This document shows positions 5,323 through 64,000 of a DNA stretch of 64,000 bases, in pieces. The DNA is taken from contig OZ024743.1 in the NCBI GenBank assembly GCA_964016885.1, positions 229,028,001-229,092,000 of the forward strand. Reading direction: 5' to 3'. The stretch comes from Eledone cirrhosa (Eukaryota). The notes below the pieces were generated by a model. That model did no database searches and was not told where the DNA came from. It saw nothing but the letters and a program-made list of their open reading frames with translations. Both the position numbers and the translations under genes were made by a program. Positions within the stretch are counted from its first letter, which is position 1. Every line of letters begins with the position of its first letter.

Positions 5323-8300
5323 TGGCGGGTTTTCTACAGCTGGATGCCCTTCCTAACACCAACCACATTTACAGTGTGGGGCTGGGAGGTTTTTACCGTG
5401 TTGCTTACATGGCCACATTGCAGCGTGGACTGTCTGGTGGGTTTTCTACAGCTGGATGCCCTTCCTAACACCAACCACATTTACAGTGTGGGGCTGGGAG
5501 GTTTTTACCGTGTTGCCTACACGGCCACATTACAGCATGAACTGTGTGTTTTTTTGTCGTGACACCTACACGATCTCATTTGTTTCGGCCTGGATGTTGT
5601 GGCACCAACATAACTTTACATTGAAAGGGGCGTTGTGGATAGGGTGGGGGTGGTGGGACGGGGGTGTATTTTGTTAGAGATGCCTACTGACTGTAGTAGG
5701 TTTTACTTTGTATTTAGGTAAGGCGGGTCTTCTCTATTACTGAGTACCGCCAAAGGTCTCGGTCCAGTGACGTTGTCTTGGTGAGGTGTAAGTGTGTGAG
5801 GTCGGAATTTATCAGCTCGTCCCAGGTCTTTCTGGGTCTGCCTATTCCGTGGCTACCGTCTATCTTTATTGCCCTGCACTTTGTTATACAGCTATCGTCT
5901 TTCATGCGCATCACGTGACCATACCAACGTAGCCTTCTCTCGAGTAAACAACATCTGATCCCTCTTATTTCTAATTTTTTCCTTAGTTCGTTTATGCTTT
6001 GCCGTTCACGTATATTACTATTACACATCCAGCGGAGCATGCAAGCTTCGTTTCTCTCTAGTCTGCGTATATCCTCTGCACACAATGCCCAGGTCTCACT
6101 GCCATGCAACATTGCTGTTCGTATGCAGGCATCATACAACCTGTCTTTCATTTTTAGGGAGAACCCTTTAGCGGCTAATAGTGGTATAAGCTCTCTGAAC
6201 TTTTTCCATCCAGTTCTGACTCTAGCTACTGTACTTTCAGAACACCCGCCCCCACTGCTGATTTTGTCACCCAGGTAACGGAAGCTGTCCACTGTTTCTA
6301 TAGAACCCTCTGCGCAGTTGAAAGAGCTAGTATTTAGTGGGCACTTGCTGCTACTTATTGCACCAGAGCACCGGCCACATATAAAATCTATGTTCTTAGT
6401 TAGCTTACTGTGATCCCACTACATCTTTTATGCACCCATACTTTGCATTTGGGACACAAGATGGAGTTTCTACCTACGCCTTTCCTACACACTGAGCATG
6501 GCCACTTCCCGGAAGGGACCGGCGCCTTATTTTCTTTCTTACAAACTAGAACTTTAGTCTTAGCCAGGATAATTTTAAGGCCTTTTGATTCTAGGCCATG
6601 CTTCCATGTTTGGAATTTCTTCTCTAGCTCGGCCATTGATTCAGCTATGAGTGTTAGGTCATCTGCATATAGGAGTTCCCATGGGCAACCAGTCTTGAAC
6701 TCCTCTGTTATAGCCTGAACGGCAATAATAAATAGTAGGGGTCTGAGAACAGAGCCCTGATGGACGCCAACTTTTACGCTAAACTCTTCACTATATTCGT
6801 TGTTAATTCTAACCTTGCTGACTGTTTCTTTATACATGGCTTGTATAGTTCTCACAAGCCATTCATCAACACCTAGTTTTCTAAGAGCCCACCAGATAAT
6901 GGAACGGGGGACTCTGTCGAAGGTTTTCTCCAAGTCGACGAAAGCTAAGTATAGGGGTTTACTTTTAGCTAGGTACTTCTACTGTAGTTGTCGTACAATG
7001 AAAAGAGCGTATGTGGTACTTTTGCCTGACACAAACCCGAACTGCATTTCATCTAGATCGATTCTCTCTCTGATTAGTTGCGCTATTACTTTTTTCGTGA
7101 TCTTCATGACCTGGTCGATTAATTTAATGCCTCTATAGTTACTCCTATCTAGGGCGTCTCCTTTACCCTTGTAGCAGTTAATGATGATGCTGCTACGCCA
7201 GTCCTTCGGAACAAACCCATTCTGTATGACTTGGTTTACTATCCGGGTGACCATGGTGTGTCCCACCGTTCCAGAGGCTTTCAGCATCTCAGCAACTATT
7301 TCCGAAGGCCCAGCCGCCTTACCCGTCTTCATATCTTTGATTGCCTTACTTATTATACTACCTTCGACTAACACTGATGGTCCCTCTATTGGGTCGATGT
7401 GGGGAGACTGTCTTTCTCCCATTTATTCTCCTCATTTAGTAGCCTTTCGTAGTGACACTTCCAAGCTACCTTCTTATCAGTGTCAGTGATGGCAAGTATG
7501 CCATCATCATTAAGTACACACTTCTCCCCGACAATATCACGGTTTTCCTTGACACATTGCCTAACAATCCTGAACACCTCACGTTTTTGGTCCTCGCGTT
7601 GTAGAACATGCTTAAACTTTCTTTCCTCTGCTTCCCTTTTTGCGAAGTACACCTGTCTCCTAGCTTCCCTCCTGGCCACTTGATAGTCTTCTCTACTTCT
7701 CCCATCCCGCCATACTTTCCAAGCCTGCTTTTTGGCCTTAATTGACTCCTCCACCTTACTGTTCCACCACCATGTTACTCTCCTCCTGCCTACAGGCCTG
7801 CTCCAGCCACAGACATCGTCTGCCGCCATCAGCAGGTTTGCTTTCAGGAATTCCCACTGTTCCTCTATATTGTACGACTCTAATTGCTCTTCCTTACTGT
7901 CAAAAGCATCAAGTAATATGCTTTTAAATTTATTTCTGGCTGTGGGGTCCTTTAGCTTCCATATTTTTCTCCTGAGGATAGTCCTCTTCTGCTGTCAAGT
8001 ACGTCTCGTCCTGACTATGAGGTCGCTAATTATCAGTCTATGTTGGGAGGTGCATTCTTCATGGGGGAGTGATTTAGTGTTTACAACAAACACTCTGTCA
8101 CGTCTTCTGGTAAGGATATAATCTACCTGGCTGGTATGTTCCCCTGATCTGTAGGTGATCAAGTGATTGTCTCGTTTTTTGAAGTTAGTGTTACAGATAG
8201 TTAGGTTATTTGCATCACAGAATTCCAGGATTCTGGAGCCTTCCTCATTTCTACTACCAAACCCATAGCCTCCGTGGATTCCGTCATAGCAGTCACAATG

Positions 8301-9460
8301 TTGACCAACGTGGCCATTTAGGTCGCCAGCAATAATTATATAGTCACTGTCGGTTATTTGGGAGGTAGTGAGCATCAGTGTCTCATAGAATCTGTCTTTT
8401 ATAGCGCCAGGCAGTCCGGATTGGGGCTCGTATGCCGATATTACTGTCACAGTAGTTCTATTTAGAACAAGTCTTATTTTAATTATTCTGTCATTTACTC
8501 TATTTACATCTATTATCTTATCCACCCATTTTTCTGCTAACATGATTCCTACTCCACCTATCCCATTGTCATTTCCCACCCAGAAAAGCTTATAGCAACG
8601 TTTTTTACCCACAATGAATCTAGCAGACCAGCCCCTCCACCTGGTCTCTTGGATACAGCAAACATCAACCGCCTTACGTTCAAGCATTTCTACAACCTCG
8701 TTAGAGCGGCCTTTTAAGGTGCCTACATTTATGGTACCAACTCTGAAGTTTTGGATTGTGTTTGGAGGATGGGGCGCAGGGATGGGTGAGGGGTTGGGGT
8801 TATGTTGGCCATCCGCGGCCGAAACAAAGAGGAGGGGGCCTTGCCCTTTCGTCCGGCAGCATGAGGTGAATTTGTCGTTATCTTTGGCATTGTCATCGAG
8901 TGTCCAGATTCTTCAGACTCTCCAGAAATTCCTTAGTCCATCCATCATATCGAAAAGCAGCCAGAAGTGATAGCATAGGCCGTTGACTTGTGATTGGTCC
9001 AAATAATAAGATGGAGAGTGGGGGCGGGAGGGAGGGGTATGGGGTAGTTAGCAAAGAGAAGATTATTTAGAACAAATGGGGTAGTTAGCGAGAGGTTTTA
9101 AATGAAATCTTCGAATTTTGGGGGGCATAATTGGAGAAGCATATAACAGTAATAATAAGCGAATAATGGGGTTTTAAAATACAAGAAGATTATTTAGAAA
9201 CAACCAGACAGAATTATAGAATAGCATTGAGAGAGAGCAAAGATTGGATTTTGGGCGATAATACGGATATATGAATGAATGGACCGATAGCAAAGAGAAG
9301 ATTATTTAGAACAATATGAATGAATGGACCGATAGGCTGGAGAGAGATGAGAAAAATGGCATTTACATTATACTTCGCAGGGACAAGGTCTGACCATTTT
9401 TAAGCGTTGACAAATTCTGAGATTCGTACCTCGCAACAGGTTTATTTATATTTGGAGACA
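5323..9460 (-). mobile_element. Near full-length RTE-clade non-LTR retrotransposon (decayed)
   Basis: Single APE+RT reading frame, ~500-bp pyrimidine-rich 5' region, and a 3' UTR matching the copy at 49610-49875. The 5' boundary is approximate and the (GAT)n tail is missing. Confidence 0.93.
5714..8948 (-). pseudogene. RTE polyprotein pseudo-ORF (APE endonuclease, reverse transcriptase, internal C4HC3 finger)
   Basis: APE motifs VGTINV, IQETRW, AGDLNGH, VDYIL, SQHRLI; RT motifs NYRGIKL, QFGF, FVDLEKTFDRV, GVHQGS, LLYADD, FRYLG. In-frame ATG at 8948; in-frame stops near 8915, 7995 and 6979; 1-nt deletions near 7405 and 6410 relative to the second copy. Confidence 0.93.

Positions 9461-14608: not shown

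Positions 14609-14653
<45 letters not shown>
14609..14653. repeat. (TA)n microsatellite
   Basis: Direct reading. Confidence 0.98.
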
Positions 14654-14656
<3 letters not shown>

Positions 14657-14694
14657 GAAACAAGAAATGAGCAAACAGAAGATGCAATAGCATG

Positions 14695-14775
14695 AATTGT
14701 ATTAGTTTCAAGCTTCGAAGAAAAATGAGTTACATAGTCAAAGAATCCGGCATTTGCCCTTCATCAGAAAAAAAA
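14695..14775 (-). ncRNA. Degenerate hammerhead-ribozyme-like motif
   Basis: Minus: CUGAUGA (14767-14761) A-GGGC...GCUU GAAACUAAUA (one change from GAAACUAGUA). Stem I is not recoverable; the motif lies ~50 nt from (TA)n. Confidence 0.4.
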
Positions 14776-15187: not shown

Positions 15188-15915
15188 CTATCAGAAGAAC
15201 CACCCTACGGGAGGTTTTCTGCTAGCATATATAGTGTGTATATTGATATATGCAAATGTATATGCACATAGATATAATATGTAAATTGATAATATGCACA
15301 TAAACTGAACAAAGACTGTGTTATACTTACTTCTGTAATCAGTAAAGTAATCCATGATATATTAAAAAAGAGAGGCAATAATGGAGATGGAAAAGCGATG
15401 AAATGTTGAGGGAAAATGTTCATGAATCTTCACTTGAGAATGTCGATGGGAAGCTTCAAGCAGTGAATTTGAAAATAGATGCTGCTGGTATGAATGAATG
15501 AATTACATTTACCAATCTCACAGTACACTACCTGATCAATGGCACCAGCAGTTTTGGGCTTGCTATCTTCAGCCATTATCAGCACAACATGGGCATGAGT
15601 GAGGTCTCATTTTCTGCCACTCTATTGCAGCAGAATGACCCACAACTTTTCCTAGAAGATCTTTTTTCATTATGTCATCCATGAGGCTGTCATATTTGAT
15701 CTTGAAGACTCTTGCATAAATATCAGGACGGTCTCTAGGTTCTTCACCAGGTTGCAAACTATTTTTTATTTCATCCCAGTTAGGGTTAGTTGTTACCGTG
15801 ATGAAATAAGATGGCTTTCCCATGTGTCGAACCACAGTCATCGAATTCTGAAAGCACTCACTGTAGAAGCAAGGGGAACCATAGATTGAAGGAGGAAGAA
15901 TAATTCTCCGACCTG
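15188..15915 (-). mobile_element. Internally deleted Helitron: Rep fragment plus 3' terminus
   Basis: 15188-15360 is the reverse complement of the hairpin+CTAG end at 17632-17817 (here ending ATAG|T); a Rep coding remnant lies upstream on the same strand. Confidence 0.8.
15529..15915 (-). pseudogene. Helitron Rep (HUH endonuclease) fragment
   Basis: GRRIILPPSIYGSP..GKPSYFITVTTNPNWDEI..DRPDIYARVFKIK..IEWQK, frameshifted into PHAH: Helitron Rep motifs I and II. Confidence 0.92.
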
Positions 15916-15919
15916 CACT

Positions 15920-16030
15920 TGTTTCAGACGTTAGACAGTGCCCATGCTGGGGTACCACAATTAAAGGATTTTCTTGACCTCAATTCCAGTACATATATTT
16001 TAAAATCTAGTACTTATTTTATTGATCTCT
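15920..16030 (-). mobile_element. Fragment of a third SINE-like family (gtttcag..ccatgctggggcacc)
   Basis: Related pieces at ~34140-34290 (-), 46150-46290 (+), 46320-46490 (+) and 31310-31400 (-). Confidence 0.55.
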
Positions 16031-16891: not shown

Positions 16892-17817
16892 TCTATATAT
16901 ATAAATATATTCGCGCATGTACAGTATGGACCGGTCTTCGTGCATGTGCACTTCAGACCAGCCTTCGCGCATGTGCACTCCAGACCAGCCTTCGCGCATG
17001 TGCACTCCAGACCAGCCTTCGCGCATGCGCACTCCAGACCAGCCTTCGCGCATGCGCACTTCAGACCAGCCTTCGCGCATGCGCACTTCAGACCAGCCTT
17101 CGTGCATGCATAGTACGGACCAGCCTCCGCGCATGCGCAGTACGAACCAGCTTTCACACATGCGCAGTATGGAACAGACTTTGCGCATGTGCACTTCGGA
17201 CCAGATTTCGCCTATATATATGTCTATGTATGAATAGATATATTTGTGTGTGTGTCTGCATCAGACATAATTTATATGCTATGACATTTATATATAATGT
17301 AATAGCATATAAATGAGCGTACAACAGAGCTTAATCTAAACTATAATAAAGTAAGAAGCGCGAGACTGTGTACAGTTTATAATTTTTTATCCCCTTAGTA
17401 AAATAAGTTGGATTACTTTGAATAAATAATGAATGAATATTACATAATTTATCTACTAAATTTTGTGGCTGTTCATTAAATAAATTTTATTACTTATTTA
17501 AAGATTCATTTCTTTAAAATTTTCAAATGTCAACACTTCCGGTTAGCGATTGTTTAAATAAACATTCATATATTTCCATCACTAATTTTCTCCTAATGCA
17601 GTTTATATATAATATCGTCTTTTTATAATGTATCATGGATTACGTTACTGATTACATAGGACAGTGTAACACAGTCTTCATTCAATTTCTGTGTATATTG
17701 TCAATTACGGTTTTATTTGATGTATCATATCTACATGCATATATAGTTGCATATAATGTCAATATACACACTACACATGCTAGCAGAAAACCACCCGAAG
17801 GATGGTTTTTCTGCTAG
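16892..17817 (+). mobile_element. Non-autonomous Helitron (~926 bp)
   Basis: 5' TCTATATATATAAA at 16892; 3' hairpin ctagcagaaaacca-cccgaagga-tggtttttctgctag ending CTAG|T at 17817. The base before TC is G rather than the canonical A. Confidence 0.75.
16910..17206. repeat. 27-bp CpG-rich minisatellite, 11 units (consensus ttcgcgcatgYgcactYcagaccagcc)
   Basis: Units counted at 27-bp spacing from 16910 to 17180; they generate the 9-aa repeat ORFs in several frames. Confidence 0.97.
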
Positions 17818-25475: not shown

Positions 25476-25592
25476 TGTTTGTTGTAGACCTAACTGTAGA
25501 GTCCTCTTACCTCTGGGAAGGGGGCAATAGAAGAGGAAGATAAGTATATTTATATATATACACACATACAACTCCTCTGCCTCCTTCACTGT

Positions 25593-26325
25593 GTGAAGGA
25601 GGCACAGGAGTTGATTCAGGAGGTGGAGACCGTGTTGATGAGTGTGGGGCTGAGAATGAATGAGATTAAGATGAAGTATCTGATAGAGAATATTAAGAAG
25701 TCAGATAAGATTATGAATGTAGGCGGGAAGCCGCTAGAATTGATTGAGGACTTCCTGTATCTTGGAACAAAGACTGGGAATACAGAAGATGATGTGGTTG
25801 AGAGGAAGACCAAAGCCTGGACAGGATGCCAAAGTTTGAGATCGGTGTGGAAGTCAGACCTTCATGAAGACCTGAAGATTCGTCTCTTCGTTACTGTAGT
25901 GGAGTATGTGGTGTTGTATGGGTCTGTGACTTGGACACTGACCAAGAAACTCACTCAAATGGTGGCTTGGTGCTACACGAGAATGCTGAGGATGGCTCTG
26001 AACATTAATCAGTATACACTGAGGACGAAGAACTCAGAGCTGTACGGGAGCCTCCCAAAAGTCAGCTCAAAAGTAGCACAGAGCACAGAGGAGACTGAGG
26101 TTAGCTGGACATGCTCACTGACATCCAGAGTTGACACTGCACTCAGTGCTCCTGTGGGAGGCCCTGCATGGACACACTAGAAGTGGGAGACCGAGGTTGA
26201 CATATGTTGATGCCCTAAGGACAGGCACTGGTCTCTTGGAGACACAGGACATGGCAGTGATGATGAGGGACAGAGACCTCTGGAGAGAACTCGTCTATGG
26301 ATCTCAGGAATTTTACCCGCCCTAG
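25593..26325 (+). mobile_element. 5'-truncated RTE-like LINE (separate family), RT C-terminus
   Basis: GLRMN..K.KY, IEDFLYLG, KAW, LKIRLF..VVLYGSVTWTLTK, RMLRMALN, GRPRLTYVD, DRDLWR; frameshift near 26085. Confidence 0.88.
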
Positions 26326-40799: not shown

Positions 40800-44581
<3,782 letters not shown>

Positions 44582-46115: not shown

Positions 46116-47479
46116 ACCTATATATGTATGTGTGTGTGTATTCTAATTTATGTACCATCTTAGCAGTTCGAAATGAAGACATCATTAAGATAACTTCCAA
46201 ACTTGAAAAAAATCAAGTACTGGGATTGCTATTATCAACTAAATCAAGATAGAGCCCCAGCATGGTCAGGTTATAAAGACTGAAACCAATAAATGAATTT
46301 AAGAACATGTGTACGTTTGTGTGTGTGAGTTTACCTTGTATCTGTATTTATATCCCATAACTTATCAGTTTGACAAAAAAGAGATTCATAAAATAAGCCC
46401 TGGCCTTGTATAAATAAGTCCCAGAGTTGATATGATTCACTAAAATCACTTTTAAGGCAATGCCCCAGTATGCCACAGTCGAAGAAAAGACTAAAATATT
46501 GGAATTATATTTTCCAATGGAACTGAATATTTGTTGTTATTTTTATTATTTTATACAATAAAATATATAATATAAAGAATATATAAAATAAATTGTGATT
46601 ATTATTATTATTTCAAATCTAAATGAACCTAATTCATTAAATCAAATTTGTCAGTAATAGATTCATTTAAGAGTTTATTAAATCACGTGAATGATAAAAT
46701 GTGGGTGTATGAAGGGAAGACAAATTGTGTGAATGTGAATGTGTGAATATATTTGCAAATAGTAGTGGTAAAAGGAAAAAAGAAGAGAGAGAAGAGAAGG
46801 GAGGAATGCAGGAATATGAAGAAAAGAGTGAGAGATAGAAGTGGAAATCGAGGGAAATATTTAAAATAGGGGAGGAGCAGCTAGAGCTAAAAGGGGGAAA
46901 GAGAATGTAAAATGAGGAAAAGAGAGCAAATGGCAGGAAACAAAAGAGAAGGAAGGTGGGGAGGAAAGAAACTGATCATCTTATTAGACCAAGGAAACTA
47001 TGTTTCCATTGGTCTTTCTATTGTTGATATTGTGTCTGTTAATCACAACTCCAGGCAGAAGATGGGATTTGAACTCAAAGAGCAAAGAGCCAGATCATCT
47101 ACCATAAGGCATCCCATCAGGTTCTGAACTTTTTTACCATATTTCTAATGACGTATGTTCAATTAATTAATGAAGAATCTGGAGGGATTTACTAAATTTA
47201 TTGATTATTTCTAGATTAAGGTAGTATTTGTAACATAACAAAAATGATTTTCTTTAAAATTAGGTTGGAATGTACTTCTGTTTCATAGAATCAGAACCAA
47301 TTTTGGCTGGGCTAGTATCAAAACAGTAAAACAATTCTGTGAATCCACTACTCCTGAAATGGTACTACATTTATTGACCCTGCTTAAGAGAAAAGAGAAA
47401 AATCTACAAAGAGAAAGAGAGGGTGAGGAGATAGTGAAGAGAATGAGAAGGAAATATATATATATATATATATATATAT

Positions 47480-47864
47480 GCAAAAGTTCTATTTAAATTG
47501 TTGGGATACAACAAGCAAATATTTTTATAACTGATATAAAGCACTCGACAAGTATTTGGAGTAAATATACTATATTAACAAATGGAAACTATATTTATAA
47601 AACCATATTTATTTCATTATACATATTTCAAGGATACCATGTTAAATTATGGTAAAATACAATATATACCAGTTTTATAAATAAACATTGACGTACCCTT
47701 TCAAAATGCAACCGTTACTTTTGCAAGACATCAGGATAGTGGATTTGTTTATTTTAGTAAGTCGTTTTGTTTTTCCTTAACAAAACGACTTACTAAAATA
47801 AACAAATCCACTATCCTGATGTCTTCCAAAAGTAACTGTTGCATTTTGAAAGGGTACGTCAATG
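47480..47864 (-). mobile_element. (TA)n-anchored hammerhead-family element (core deleted) ending in an 86-bp fold-back
   Basis: 47480-47735 aligns with 63503-63775 apart from a 15-nt deletion; inverted arms at 47686-47771 and 47779-47864. Confidence 0.85.
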
Positions 47865-49987
47865 ATAAGAAGGTAGCTTGGAAGTGTCACTACGAAAGGC
47901 TACTAAATGAGGAGAATAAATGGGAGAAAGACAGTCTCCCCCACATCGATCCAATAGAGGAACCAGCAGTGCAAGTTGAAGGTAGTATAATAAGTAAGGT
48001 GATATGAAGACAGGCAGGGCCTTCGGAAATAGTTGCTGAAAGCATCTGGAACAGTGGGACACACTATGGTCACCAGGATAGTAAACCAAGTCATACAGAA
48101 TGGGGTCACTCCGAAGGACTGGCGTAGCAGCATCATCATTAACTGCTACAAGGGTAAAGGAGATGCCCTAGATAGGGGAAACTATAGAGGCATTAAATTA
48201 ATTGACCAGGTCATGAAGGTCACAGAAAAAGTAATAGCGCAACTAATTGGAGAGCGAATTGAACTAGATGAAATGCAGTTGGGTTTGTGTCAGGTAAAAG
48301 TACCACAGACGCTCTTTTCATTTTACGACAACTACAGGAGAAGTACCTAGCAAAAAGTATACTTAGCTTTTGTTGACTTGGAGAAAGCCTTTGACAGAAT
48401 CCCCTGCTCCACTATCTGGTGGGCTCTTAGAAAACTAGGTGTTGATAAATGGCTTGTGAGAACTATACAAGCCATGTATAAAGAAACAGTCAGCAAGGTT
48501 AGAATTAACAACGAATATAGTGAAGAGTTTAGCGTAAAAGATGGTGTTCATCAGGGCTCCGTCCTTAGCCCCCTACTATTTATTATTGCCCTTCAGGCTA
48601 TAACAGAGGAGTTCAAGACCGGCTGCCCATGGGAACTTCTATACGTAGATGATCTAATGCTCATAGCTGAATCAATGGCCGAACTAGAGAAGAAATTCCA
48701 AACATGGAAACATGGCCTAGAATCAAAAGGCCTTAAAATTAACCTGTCTAAGACTAAAGTTCTAGTTTGTAGGAAGGAATATAGGGCACTGGTCCCATCT
48801 GGGAAATGGCCATGCTCAGTGTGTAGGAAAGGAGTAGGCAGAAACTCCATTTTATGTCCCAAATGCAAAGTATGGGTGCATAAAAGATGTAGTGGGATCA
48901 CAGGTAAGCTAACTAAGAATATAGATTTTATATGTGGCCGGTGCTCAGGTGCAATAAGTAGCAGCAAGTGCCCACAGAATACTAGCTCATTCCATTGCAC
49001 AGATGGTTCTATGGAAATAGTGGACACCTTCCGTTACCTGGGTGACAAAATCAGCAGTGGTGGAGGGTGCTCTGAAAGTACAGTAGCTAGAGTTAGAACG
49101 GGATGGAAAAAGTTCAGAGAGCTTATACCACTATTGGCCGCTAAAGGGTTCTCTCTAAAAATGAAAGGCAAGCTGTATGATGCCTATATATGAACAGCAA
49201 TGTTACATGGAAGTGAGACCTGGGCATTGTGTGCAGAGGATATATGCAGACTGGAGAGGAATGAAGCTTGCATGCTCCGTTGGATGTGTAATAGTAATAT
49301 ACATGAATGGCAAAGCATAAATAAACTAAGGGAGAAATTAGGAATAAGAGGGATCAGATGTTGTTTACTCGGGAGAAGACTAAGTTGGTAAGGTCACGTG
49401 ATGCGTATGAAAGACGACAGCTGTATAAAAAAGTGCAGGGTGATAAAAATAGACGGTAGCCACGGAGTAGGCAAACCCAGAAAAACCTGGGACGACTTGA
49501 TAAATTCCAACCTCACACACTTACACCTCTCCAAGACAATATCACTGGACTGAGATCTTTGGCGCTACACAGTAATACAGAAGACCCCCCGCCTTGCCTA
49601 AGTACAAAATGAAACCTACAGTCAGTAGGCACCTCTAACAAAATACACCCCCGTCCCACTACTCCCACCCCACCATACCACCTCTTTCAATGTAAAGTTA
49701 TGTTGGTACCACAACATCCAGGCCAAAACAAATGAGGTAATGTAGGTGTCATGACAAAAAAACACACAGTCCACGCTGTAATGTGGCCGTGTAGGTAACA
49801 CGGTAAAAACCTCCCAGTCCACACTGTAAATGTGGTTGGTGTTAGGAACGGCATCCAGCTGTAGAAAACCCGCCAGACAGTCCTATACGAGCAAGACAAC
49901 CAATCTTGCCTCAAGTGGGAAAATTCCCATCCAAACCCATGCAAGCGTGGAAGATGGACGTTAAACGATGATGATGATGATGATGAT
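47863..49987 (+). mobile_element. 5'-truncated RTE LINE, same family as 5323-9460, with intact 3' UTR and (GAT)n tail
   Basis: Closely similar RT (GVHQGS, YVDD instead of YADD, C4HC3 finger, FRYLG); frameshifts and stops; ends ggacgttaaac(gat)7. Confidence 0.95.
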
Positions 49988-50715: not shown

Positions 50716-51713
50716 GGGACATGTCTTAGTGGTTAAAATGTTTGGCTCACTATCATAAGGTCATGGCTTCCTTTGTGGCTTCCATTGTTTCCTTAAGCAA
50801 GGTATTATTTTATATTGCTCTAGCTAGTAAAATTATGTCAAACCTGTAAATCAAATGGCCAACCTTATCATACACAGTTTCATATTTTATCTCCCTGAGA
50901 AATACATTAAACTTACACATGTCTGTGGAATGCTTAGGCACGTGCATGTTAATTTCATGAGCTGGCTGTTCCATTTATTCATACAATTGGAACACTCACC
51001 ATCGGAACTGATAAAAGTCGCACACACACACACTTATATATAAGTGTGTGCGTGTGTTTTGAATAAGTTATTTGCCTCACAATATAATTAGTGCAAAATG
51101 ATTTATATAAACTGAAGTACTAAAGAACCAATTTCATTTCCTAGTGGCATTAACCCGTTAACACTGTGAAACTGAAATTAATATAAGTAATTAATTCCGT
51201 TGACATAGCTCAAAGGAAAATATATTCTTTGATTTCAATTTAAAGTTTTTAAGAAATCATAAAATGCTGAGTTTGAACTTACCAGCTTATAAATTATTCC
51301 CACATTTAGCTTTTTGCATGGTTTTTTCAATGTTCATTGTTTGACAATGATGAAGTTGTGTACAATATTTTTAGAAAATAATTGTCCACCGCATACTAAC
51401 TTTCTCATTATTAAGCTGGGGTTTGGAATATAACTTAAATGTTCTTACATAAATTTATGATTTTTAGGTAGATATAAGCACTTTAAACAGTTTTGTATTT
51501 TAAAACCAGGGTCAGTTTCAGACAGTTTTGTATAAAAAGGATTAATATGGTTACACAAGTTTATATACCACCTGCATCTAAAAAGTAAGTTGTTTGTATT
51601 ATGTGATGTTTACTTTAAAACTTGCCTGTGCTCGTATTTGAAATATTTTAATATTCTTCTACAAGTGCTTTTTTTTTAGGTTATTGCCAAAATAATGAAT
51701 TTTTTTCAAATGC

Positions 51714-60867: not shown

Positions 60868-61200
60868 TCAAAATTGACACAGTAAAAACCTGTGAGACCA
60901 TTACTCACCAGAATACTCGATACTTGGGGTAGAAGAGTGTGGTAATATGAAAGAGTCAGGACTCTGACAGGTGAGCTCTTGCCATTTCAACAGCTAGTTC
61001 TAAAATTGCTGTTGAAATGGCAAGAGCTCAGCCGTTCATATATATATATATGAAAGATTTTCTACTCTGCGGATGAGCTGTTGCAGTTTTGACAGTAAGC
61101 AGGTAATGAATGAGTAAGAGCTCAGCTTCTTCATTATAATACCTACACTCCACTTTCTTAAGCATCGAGTACTAAGCTGAATAGTGGTCTTACTAGTCAT
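60868..61200. mobile_element. Two oppositely oriented fragments of a (TA)n-associated element, with a 23-bp perfect hairpin
   Basis: 60893-60965 is a diverged reverse complement of ~61117-61191; perfect arms 60972-60994 and 61008-61030; hammerhead-like remnants. Confidence 0.65.
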
Positions 61201-61312: not shown

Positions 61313-61465
61313 TTCATTATTTAACGATCGTTTCTAGGACATATATGTGTTAGAAATGGCATGCATATTCAACAGATCTATGTACAAAATTATACAAAAT
61401 TATACAAATTATCAAATAGAATATACATACCAACACATACATATGCCGTCTTCAGAAATAATGAA
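61313..61465 (-). ncRNA. Type I hammerhead ribozyme motif with a long stem II insert
   Basis: Minus: UUCAUUAUUU-CUGAAGA-(stem II cggcauauguauguguu / aacacauauauguccua)-GAAA-CGAUCG-UU-AAAUAAUGAA. Stem I is a perfect 10 bp; stem III is palindromic; the predicted cut follows GUU (61323/61322). The base of stem II is imperfect. Confidence 0.8.
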
Positions 61466-61709
61466 ATATATTTATTGATAATAACAACAATTCAAAATTA
61501 CAGGTCTGTTTGGGAGCAGAGTTCAAATAGACCAATGAAATACATAAAAATATATCAAGAAAATACAGTTAGGTGTGTGTATATATGTAAGTAATTTCGT
61601 TCACAGATATGCATAAAAATATATGTTCACATGCATACGCATGTCGAAAAGATGTATGTAAATACAAACATTCAGGGCTAATGTCTCTGTATGTTTATAA
61701 TCTAGACAA

Positions 61710-62954: not shown

Positions 62955-63450
62955 TAGTAAATATAGGTTTCAAGGAACATAGAATATTAATCTGCATTTA
63001 GATCATAATATGTGTTTACATAGTAGTTTCAGTATTAGGAAATGTAAGAAAGAAGGCAAAATTATGCATTTTAATATAAGTAGACTATTAATTATAGGTT
63101 AACTAAATTAAAATTAGTTAATATATTGATTTCTAAGGTGTATACTACTTAGGTTTATAATATTTAAAGCAGAATTTTGAAGTTAAACAGTAGTAGAGTA
63201 TTAATTATAGCATAACTAAATTAAAAATATTAACATTATGGTATCAATTTTAGGAAATGAATTTAGTAATAGGGAAAACCAAATCAAGTATTTCATCGGT
63301 AGTAGAATATAAATTATAGGTTAACTAAATTAAAAATTATATATTAATTTCTATAGTATATGTTAATTAGGTTTATAATAATTAAAGCAGATTTTGTATT
63401 TTATCTATAGTAGAATATAATTATAGGTTAACAAAAATTAAAATTAATAT
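62955..63450. repeat. AT-rich ~110-bp tandem repeat, 4-5 units alternating between two types
   Basis: agtaga.tat.aattatagg/cttaactaaattaaaa recurs at ~63079, 63192, 63301 and 63408. Confidence 0.8.
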
Positions 63451-63468
63451 ATATATATATGATTTATC

Positions 63469-63502
<34 letters not shown>

Positions 63503-63506
<4 letters not shown>

Positions 63507-63791
63507 AAAGTTCTATTTAAAATTGTTGGGATACAACAAGTAAATATTTTTATAACTGATATAAAGCACTTGACAAGTATTTGGAGTAGATATACGATAT
63601 TAATAAATGGAAACTATATTTATAAAACCATATTTATTTCATTATACATATTTCAGGGATACCAAATTAAATTATGGTATGCCTTCATCAGACAAAATAC
63701 AATATATAACAGTTTTACAAATAAGCTTTGACGTACCCTATTAAAATGCAACCATTGTTTTTGGAAGCCATCCGGATGACTTTCAAAAACA
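63503..63791 (-). mobile_element. (TA)n-flanked hammerhead-carrying element ending in a short fold-back
   Basis: TA tracts on both sides; paralog at 47480; terminal palindrome 63756-63791 (16/18 pairs). Confidence 0.85.
63635..63699 (-). ncRNA. Compact type I hammerhead ribozyme motif
   Basis: Minus: UAUUUUGU-CUGAUGA-AGGCAUACCA-uaauuuaauu-UGGUAUCCCU-GAAA-UAUGUA-UA-AUGAAAUA. Stem I is 8 bp (2 GU), stem II 9/10 bp, stem III short and near-palindromic; the predicted cut follows AUA (63643/63642). Confidence 0.8.
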
Positions 63792-63828
63792 TAAATATAT
63801 ATATATATAAATATATATATATATAAAT

Positions 63829-63865
<37 letters not shown>

Positions 63866-63868
63866 AAT

Positions 63869-63899
<31 letters not shown>

Positions 63900-63938
63900 A
63901 ATATATATAAATATATATAAATATATATAAATATAAAT

Positions 63939-63969
<31 letters not shown>

Positions 63970-64000
63970 AATATATATATATGTAAATATATATATATAT
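63792..64000. repeat. (TA)n array with AAA interruptions, running to the window end
   Basis: Direct reading. Confidence 0.97.

What the first reader, a model, noticed from the sequence alone, without database searches (positions are those of the whole stretch)
63635..63699. Compact 65-nt hammerhead inside a 290-bp element flanked by TA repeats on both sides
All three stems and both core boxes are present, with the variants A10.1-U11.1 and an AUA triplet. The whole element sits within a TA tract, so both insertion junctions are visible. It is the best candidate here for a testable ribozyme.
Basis: partly seen in the sequence, partly recalled or inferred. Interest (0 to 1): 0.75.

Follow-up and report, generated by a model that had tools for sequence, protein, structure and literature searches.

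The report
Penelope-type retroelement tail carrying hammerhead
The hammerhead (self-cutting RNA) motif is real, but it is likely the ordinary ribozyme at the tail end of a very common Penelope-type jumping gene that lands in TA repeats, and on its own it is predicted to cut poorly.

Summary
The motif is there (63699-63635, minus strand): CUGAUGA and GAAA boxes, 8-bp helix I, 9-bp helix II, 2-bp helix III, AUA site. Matches this good occurred in 0 of 200 shuffled windows.

It is not a discrete 290-bp element. It is the 5'-truncated 3' end of a high-copy family (5,036 contigs in one run). A second copy (47480-47862) has the same 3' end against (AT)n and has lost the core. Both copies end 5' in a copy-specific fold-back, and many copies elsewhere end 86 nt earlier, also on (AT)n.

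These are the published hallmarks of Penelope-like elements (PLEs): minimal hammerhead, palindromic helix III, inverted 5' truncation, optional tail, (TA)n insertion. Both 'variants' (A-U at the base of helix II, AUA triplet) already appear in published alignments of PLE-type hammerheads. The parent RT/GIY-YIG gene was not found, so membership is inferred and the clade is open.

Helix III is not predicted to form in a monomer (p about 0.00), so the proposed monomer assay would likely be negative without refuting anything. The far end of the right TA tract lies outside the window. Ordinary: a new member of a known kind.

The parts
63504..63777 (-). Family-derived sequence: 3' end of a high-copy repeat, 5'-truncated (inferred PLE pseudo-LTR/3' UTR)
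   Evidence: 87% identical copy at 47480-47737; 5,036 contigs in X1 and 33,708 reads in X12 laid; depth falls towards 63777
63635..63699 (-). Type I hammerhead motif: helix I 8 bp, CUGAUGA 63691-63685, helix II 63684-63655, GAAA 63654-63651; predicted cut between 63643 and 63642
   Evidence: sequence, pair table and energies, 0 of 200 shuffles at 8 bp or more; cut site inferred from hammerhead numbering, untested
63644..63651 (-). Helix III / loop 3, AUAUGUAU: self-complementary with two G.U pairs; a perfect AUAUAUAU palindrome in copies with the 63647 variant; predicted dimer-forming surface
   Evidence: intermolecular 8-bp helix III adds about -4.2 kcal/mol over two helices II alone; variant at 43% of X1 depth
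63504..63589 (-). Optional 86-nt 3' extension (tail-like): many family copies end at 63590 on (AT)n instead
   Evidence: loose ends before 63590 read (AT)n in 49 contigs of X1, 5,701 reads of X12 and 1 contig of X5
63756..63791 (.). 36-nt palindrome (18-nt arms, 2 mismatched pairs): copy-specific fold-back at the 5' truncation point; 63778-63791 is the inverted duplicate
   Evidence: fold z = -3.55; depth about 0 at 63784-63790, and an X6 contig continues at 63777 like copy 2
63715..63777 (-). Possible C-terminal end of the parent ORF (open frame ending at the same TAA in both copies); unproven
   Evidence: no homologue; only 3 of 10 changed codons between the two copies are silent (my count on the alignment)
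63447..63503 (.). TA tract at the 3' junction; pure (AT)16 at 63472-63503
63791..64000 (.). Compound TA-rich tract at the 5' junction; runs off the window
47480..47768 (-). Second copy: same 3' end, 15-nt deletion (equivalent to 63694-63680) that removes CUGAUGA, extends about 30 nt further 5'
47776..47862 (+). Inverted 5' arm of the second copy (86 nt, 2 mismatches, 7-nt spacer), abutting a 5'-truncated RTE-type LINE
47454..47479 (.). (AT)13 at the 3' junction of the second copy

Best explanation
This is a hammerhead motif inside the truncated 3' end of a high-copy repeat that sits in TA repeats, likely a Penelope-like retrotransposon (PLE), and the ribozyme is predicted to cut only as a dimer or with the element's protein, not as this lone copy. 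Steps: (1) Shown: the family is high-copy, its copies thin out towards the 5' side, 3' ends abut (AT)n at two positions 86 nt apart, and both window copies end 5' in an inverted duplicate. (2) Inferred from PLE biology: the parent's GIY-YIG endonuclease nicked a TA tract, and its RT copied the RNA from an internal start near the 3' end and stopped after about 274 nt. The new cDNA end then folded back on a micro-palindrome at 63770-63777 and copied 14 nt of itself before joining the right-hand TA. (3) Inferred: in a transcript of a full or tandem parent, two hammerheads pair through the palindromic helix III, or the protein chaperones the fold, and cut after A17 (63643). (4) Inferred: this copy is a promoterless, immobile relic with a well-preserved motif.
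For: Motif beyond chance. Second copy with the same 3' junction on (AT)n, 2 of 2 window copies. High copy number and 5'-ward fall in depth; second 3' end on (AT)n at 63590 in 3 of 4 runs; 13 of 15 listed joints change strand; one 393-nt contig holds two opposite-strand pieces with 5' ends inward. Of 5 non-simple hairpins of 16 bp or more in 64 kb, 2 lie at the 5' ends of the two copies. None of the 12 listed variant sites in the 65 nt hits the 11 core positions or A17; the only one inside a core box is the free position 7; others turn U.G into U-A in helix I, perfect the loop-3 palindrome, or add a helix II pair. Published PLE features match: long helix II, extra nucleotide at 9/10.1, palindromic helix III, mostly single truncated copies (PMC4209133); inverted 5'-truncated segment, optional tail, (TA)n insertion in almost all Hydra families (PMC8557442); tail explained by two internal RT start sites and protein-assisted cleavage (PMC11167929).
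Against: No RT or GIY-YIG sequence of the parent was recovered: the 32-aa frame gave 4 hits, all internally repetitive proteins without PLE domains, no candidate and only scores under 0.8; it lacks the C-x-H ending read by eye in the 6 Hydra consensus sequences. Core avoidance by variants is weak alone (p = 0.085) and 29 of 69 variant rows were not shown. Taken singly, 3 of the 9 listed stem variants break a pair in both registers (63662, 63666, 63677), and variants could not be phased. The C x C mismatch in helix II has no listed variant. The 86-nt extension is longer than the 30-40 bp tail in print. Some copies end elsewhere (63597: 73 contigs, AT-rich but not TA). The junction at 63504 is seen on TA only in the two window copies. 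X12 is RAD-seq, so its counts are dominated by a few loci.
Confidence: 0.7

Rival explanations
1. The family is a non-autonomous, hammerhead-bearing derivative of a PLE (SINE-like, no ORF of its own), moved in trans by a PLE protein into (TA)n.
For: No protein homologue for the upstream frame; no excess of silent changes; the two copies differ at 11 of 63 sites upstream of 63715 against 9 of 195 downstream (p = 0.002), so the 3' part is the conserved one; depth upstream of 63714 is a small fraction of the peak. Retrozymes are argued to be PLE pLTR derivatives with many solo monomers (10.64898/2026.07.22.740005).
Against: No fixed 5' end: depth declines gradually, the two window copies are truncated at different points, and an X6 contig continues upstream like copy 2. 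The frame and its stop are kept in both copies.
Confidence: 0.18
2. It is a solo unit of a non-LTR retrozyme (tandem 150-450-bp repeats that release circular RNA by hammerhead cleavage).
For: Size, low GC and a 2-bp helix III with a tetraloop resemble retrozyme hammerheads; an axolotl motif with that helix III cut 22% in 1 h as a monomer (PMC7229834 passages).
Against: No head-to-tail joint of unit length among the 15 joints shown (2 not shown); the only same-strand joints go back 20 or 45 nt. Loose ends at 63590 are (AT)n, not a next unit. Helix II is long rather than the canonical 4 bp. Inverted 5' ends are a PLE insertion feature.
Confidence: 0.06
3. It is a discrete 290-bp element with a competent stand-alone ribozyme.
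For: All core nucleotides are intact; helix II is stable (p 0.91-1.0); TA lies on both sides.
Against: The 5' end is copy-specific; there are no terminal inverted repeats shared between the two ends; helix III p is 0.00 and helix I p is 0.01-0.02 in context; the active fold is 4.7 kcal/mol above the MFE in 65 nt and 14 kcal/mol above it in 121 nt.
Confidence: 0.05
4. The motif is a chance match in AT-rich DNA.
For: No Rfam hammerhead hit; the MFE of the 65-mer is unremarkable (z = -0.93).
Against: 0 of 200 shuffled windows reach this quality; it sits where PLEs carry hammerheads and its variation follows hammerhead rules.
Confidence: 0.01

Closest known systems
Minimal type I hammerheads of metazoan PLEs (Cervera and de la Pena 2014, PMC4209133)
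   Same: CUGANGA followed by A then G; long helix II; very short palindromic helix III; U-rich 5' and AU-rich 3' flanks; mostly lone copies in truncated elements; opposite-strand pairs. The D. willistoni row has the same U-NNNN-AUA helix III layout.
   Different: The favoured register in this copy is A10.1-U11.1 without the extra nucleotide, not G10.1-C11.1; helix I is longer (8 bp against 4-5); there is a C x C mismatch in helix II.
Hydra clade PLEs, including Hydra-1_Obim (Craig et al. 2021, PMC8557442)
   Same: (TA)n insertion, canonical hammerhead near the 3' end, U before GAAA (17 of 25 families listed, my count), A-U at the base of helix II in Hydra-1_oBim, an inverted 5'-truncated copy in Penelope-13_HM.
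   Different: All 25 listed Hydra hammerheads have C15.2-G16.2, while this one has U15.2-A16.2. The sequence differs from Hydra-1_Obim's 3' end. The upstream frame lacks the C-x-H ending. Four DNA motifs and one peptide motif of this element had 0 hits in that supplement (line breaks, ambiguity codes and cut protein lines can hide matches).
Poseidon element PAc of Anolis (Frangieh et al. 2024, PMC11167929)
   Same: Hammerhead in the pLTR, AT-rich target, two 3' termini separated by an optional tail.
   Different: The tail here is 86 nt against 30-40; the target is (TA)n; no protein is available here.
Non-LTR retrozymes of animals (PMC7229834; 10.64898/2026.07.22.740005)
   Same: Type I hammerhead in a short, AT-rich, non-coding, high-copy repeat.
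   Different: No tandem arrangement seen; variable 5' truncation with inversion; long helix II.
Naiad PLEs (octopus families listed in PMC8557442 File S1)
   Same: (TA)n insertion, 5' truncation, inverted copies, tail.
   Different: Naiads lack canonical hammerheads; this one is complete.

Membership tests
Type I hammerhead ribozyme | CUGANGA and GAAA boxes, U16.1-H17, three helices around the core | tested here: met
   (helix III only 2 bp)
Type I hammerhead ribozyme | Match to an Rfam hammerhead model | tested here: not met
   0 hits at gathering; no hammerhead among 14 matches at E<=10
Type I hammerhead ribozyme | Site-specific self-cleavage 3' of H17 | not testable with these tools
   needs an in vitro assay; monomer fold predicted unfavourable
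PLE-type minimal hammerhead | Short palindromic helix III / loop 3 | tested here: met
   AUAUGUAU is self-complementary with 2 G.U; perfect palindrome at 43% of X1 depth
PLE-type minimal hammerhead | Extra nucleotide between 9 and 10.1, and G10.1-C11.1 | tested here: inconclusive
   this copy favours A10.1-U11.1 (p 0.95 against 0.00); 3 of 3 listed variants at the helix base keep pairs in the extra-A register against 1 of 3 in the A-U register, taken singly and unphased
Penelope-like elements | ORF with telomerase-like RT and GIY-YIG endonuclease | tested here: inconclusive
   only about 32 codons of possible ORF end are held; no homologue; no GIY-YIG hit among the 95 window ORFs scanned, out of 274 listed
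Penelope-like elements | Dispersed high-copy, 5'-truncated insertions | tested here: met
Penelope-like elements | Inverted 5'-truncated segment next to the insertion | tested here: met
   2 of 2 window copies; 13 of 15 listed joints change strand
Penelope-like elements | Optional 3' tail (30-40 bp in print) | tested here: inconclusive
   two 3' ends on (AT)n, but 86 nt apart
Penelope-like elements | Partial tandem forming pLTRs around a full ORF | not testable with these tools
   no assembly held; Logan contigs too short
Hydra clade | (TA)n insertion plus canonical hammerhead | tested here: met
Hydra clade | Protein motifs (RWK, DKT, CxCX5C, CxxC and CxH around the EN's E and N) | tested here: inconclusive
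   only the last 32 codons are visible; no CxH in them, compared by eye
Non-LTR retrozyme | Head-to-tail tandem units, each with a hammerhead | tested here: not met
   no tandem at either window copy; no unit-length same-strand joint among 15 shown of 17; short contigs and reads limit this test

The most novel reading that the evidence does not exclude
An undescribed PLE lineage (hammerhead-bearing, TA-targeting, with a helix III unlike all 25 listed Hydra families) that starts reverse transcription at two sites 86 nt apart and often finishes a truncated cDNA by folding it back on itself. Its hammerhead may be held off by a one-nucleotide register shift in helix II (A10.1-U11.1 against extra A plus G10.1.U11.1) until the element's protein or a partner copy binds. 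Thousands of genomic copies would make 5'-end completion and ribozyme gating in PLEs directly measurable.
Probability: 0.15. Interest if true: 0.45.

Novelty: new member of a known kind. Interest (0 to 1): 0.2.

Why it matters
Little as a single motif: hammerheads of this build occur by the thousand in animal genomes as relics of Penelope-like elements, and both flagged variants are in print. It has modest value as a handle on a family that I did not find among the Hydra/Naiad consensus sequences I could search. It is also a clean example of fold-back 5' ends and two 3' termini, which bear on the still open question of how PLE insertions are finished and what their hammerheads do.

Tried and rejected
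Whole-genome search: none held, so no empty-site or full-length search was possible. Rfam: no hammerhead. Pattern scans: 0 matches in metagenome contigs and viral contigs. Protein searches with the possible ORF end: 4 weak hits in internally repetitive proteins, rejected; no candidate; Atlas scores under 0.8 with low recognition. Sequencing runs: no RNA holder listed, so expression was not examined. Other CTGANGA sites in the window: 13 loose matches, of which only 63691 passes at helices of 5 bp or more and 37824 passes only at 4 bp. The sigma-70 promoter scan is not meaningful for a eukaryote and was below shuffled counts. MITE or DNA transposon: rejected, no shared terminal inverted repeats. 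Paper searches with 0 results: 'hammerhead' + 'AUA triplet'; 'hammerhead' + 'A10.1' + 'U11.1'; 'hammerhead' + 'cleavage triplet' + 'AUA'. So I have no cited rate for these variants. 'hammerhead ribozyme' + 'octopus' gave 5 papers, 4 listed, none on this family by title or abstract start. A review searched for triplet data gave nothing useful (PMC6155905). A search of the Craig supplement for recalled endonuclease C-terminal motifs was uninformative because protein lines are cut. Earlier-findings look-ups by sequence, by place and by the long word list returned nothing. Supplement file 1 of PMC4209133 could not be searched, and bioRxiv supplements were closed; either could hold a closer match.

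Full report
OBSERVATION. On the minus strand, 63699-63635 contains a complete type I hammerhead layout. Helix I is 8 bp with two G.U pairs. CUGAUGA lies at 63691-63685. Helix II is A-U, G-C, G-C, a C x C mismatch and six more pairs around a 10-nt loop. GAAA lies at 63654-63651. Helix III has only two pairs around AUGU, and the triplet is AUA with A17 at 63643. My descriptor found it as the only locus in the window with helices I and II of 5 bp or more. Across 200 windows shuffled in 500-nt blocks the mean was 0.035 loci at 4 bp or more, 0.005 at 5 bp or more and 0 at 8 bp or more. Rfam gave no hammerhead match (0 at gathering; none among 14 at E<=10), and the 65-mer's folding energy is unremarkable (z = -0.93). 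TA lies on both sides of 63504-63790, but the right tract is compound and leaves the window.

WHAT THE UNIT IS. A second copy lies at 47480-47737 (87% identity). It starts at the same nucleotide next to (AT)13 and has a 15-nt deletion that removes CUGAUGA. Both copies end at their 5' side in an inverted duplicate of themselves: 18-nt arms at 63756-63791, and 86-nt arms with a 7-nt spacer at 47683-47862. These are 2 of only 5 non-simple hairpins of 16 bp or more in the 64 kb.

Fourteen runs were listed, none on record as RNA, and I laid 4 of them at 80% likeness: 5,036 contigs (X1), 33,708 reads (X12, RAD-seq, same species label), 82 contigs (X5, organism B) and 4 (X6, organism C). Depth is not a copy number, but it peaks at 63604-63653 and falls steadily to near zero at 63784-63790. 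An X6 contig continues at 63777 with the sequence of copy 2, so the last 14 nt of the finding are private to this copy. Loose ends before 63590 are (AT)n in 49 X1 contigs, 5,701 X12 reads and 1 X5 contig: a second 3' terminus, 86 nt inside the first. Other loose ends (63597, 73 contigs) are AT-rich but not TA. Thirteen of the 15 joints shown (2 not shown) change strand, most on few reads, and one 393-nt contig holds two opposite-strand pieces with their 5' ends inward. No unit-length tandem joint was listed. The finding is therefore a 5'-truncated 3' end with a fold-back, not a defined 290-bp element.

VARIATION IN THE MOTIF. Forty variant rows were shown and 29 were not. Twelve shown sites fall in the 65 nt, none on the 11 core positions or A17; the one inside a core box is position 7, the free position. 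By itself this avoidance is weak (p = 0.085). One variant turns U.G into U-A in helix I (38% of X1 depth), one makes loop 3 a perfect palindrome (43%), and one adds a pair at the top of helix II (34%). Against this, three stem variants break a pair in either register when taken singly (63662, 63666, 63677), and nothing could be phased. However, the three variants at the helix base all keep their pairs if A63684 is read as an extra nucleotide and G63683 pairs with U63655, against one of three in the A-U register. The functional register is open.

PREDICTED ACTIVITY. Helix II is stable (p 0.91-1.0). Helix III has p 0.00 in all four contexts, and helix I has p 0.23-0.34 in 65 nt and 0.01-0.02 in 121-287 nt. 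An intermolecular 8-bp helix III adds about -4.2 kcal/mol over two isolated helices II. These models ignore tertiary contacts and Mg2+, so they are predictions only.

UPSTREAM FRAME. Both copies keep a frame ending at the same TAA (63717-63715), 32 codons long in copy 2. It found no homologue: 4 hits in repetitive proteins, no candidate, Atlas scores under 0.8. Only 3 of 10 changed codons are silent by my count, and this part differs more between the copies (11 of 63) than the 3' part (9 of 195; p = 0.002). Coding is unproven. Of 274 ORFs listed, 95 were scanned; only LINE endonuclease/RT/PHD and Helitron domains were found, no GIY-YIG. No call named the host; from recall, the repeat landscape looks like an octopod cephalopod, which I did not test.

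COMPARISON WITH PRINT. PMC4209133 (parts 1-2 of 4 of the text, parts 1-2 of 3 of supplement file 2) describes PLE hammerheads with a long helix II, an extra nucleotide at 9/10.1, a palindromic helix III, mostly lone copies and opposite-strand pairs. It reports no cleavage by a monomer and low cleavage by dimers. Its 56-row alignment has AUA in Schmidtea and D. willistoni (the latter with the same U-NNNN-AUA layout), A-U at the base of helix II in Latimeria(2) and Marsupenaeus, and G.U there in 8 rows by my count. PMC8557442 (passages, section 11, supplement parts 1, 2, 52, 53 of 59 and two searches) lists 5' truncation, adjacent inverted copies, a 30-40-bp tail and (TA)n insertion, with hammerheads in Hydra but not in Naiad. 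This family matches that anatomy but not the 25 listed Hydra hammerheads (all C15.2-G16.2) nor Hydra-1_Obim. PMC11167929 (parts 1-2 of 4) shows that the tail reflects two internal RT start sites, that the hammerhead cuts only with the protein, and that cutting is not needed for insertion in vitro. Retrozyme papers were read as passages (PMC7229834) and as part 1 of 5 plus passages (10.64898/2026.07.22.740005). An octopus repeat annotation (PMC13282606, passages) lists 31 recently active Penelope-like families and does not mention ribozymes. In this scan's own notes, 358 findings hold the words hammerhead and Penelope; these are unchecked AI notes and show only that the theme is common.

MECHANISM AND VERDICT. 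Shown: the motif, the high-copy family, 5' truncation, inversions, two TA-joined 3' ends, and loss of the core in a sibling copy. Inferred: PLE parentage, endonuclease nicking of TA, internal RT start, fold-back self-priming, and dimer- or protein-dependent cleavage after 63643. I put 0.70 on a truncated autonomous PLE, 0.18 on a non-autonomous PLE derivative, 0.06 on a retrozyme unit, 0.05 on a discrete element with a stand-alone ribozyme and 0.01 on chance. It works like a PLE hammerhead; membership of PLEs rests on anatomy because the RT/EN gene could not be reached. New member of a known kind; interest 0.2.

Noticed in passing
window 14609-14770 (minus): A CTGATGA core at 14767 with a GAAA box about 50 nt on, followed by a T-rich stretch ending on (AT)22; possibly the 3' end of another PLE-type family. 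It did not pass my descriptor.
   Followed up: partly
window 61400-61470 (minus): CTGAAGA followed by C-GGCATA with a possible stem but no GAAA box; perhaps a decayed hammerhead.
   Followed up: partly
window 63078-63503: A diverged minisatellite of about 110 bp, four units (75% mean column identity), missed by TRF. The fourth unit turns into the TA tract into which the element is inserted.
   Followed up: partly
window 5714-8912 (minus) and 47863-49985 (plus): Two decayed LINE copies, 91-92% alike, RTE-type by recall, with a PHD finger after the RT core. The second is 5'-truncated and abuts the inverted arm of copy 2 directly.
   Followed up: partly
window 15572-15979 (minus): Helitron helicase-like fragment (PF14214, E 3.5e-32).
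   Followed up: no
window 40800-44469: A 3.7-kb almost pure A/T microsatellite followed by (AG)56.
   Followed up: no
window 16929-17211: GC-rich 27-bp tandem array, 10.5 copies, with an internal GCGCATGCGC palindrome.
   Followed up: no
window 25568-25614, 51020-51057, 60972-61030: Three other non-simple hairpins of 17-26 bp.
   Followed up: no
window 63504-63714 against 63715-63777: The two copies are about 95% alike in the 3' part but 83% alike upstream (p = 0.002): either constraint on the RNA 3' end or subfamily recombination.
   Followed up: partly
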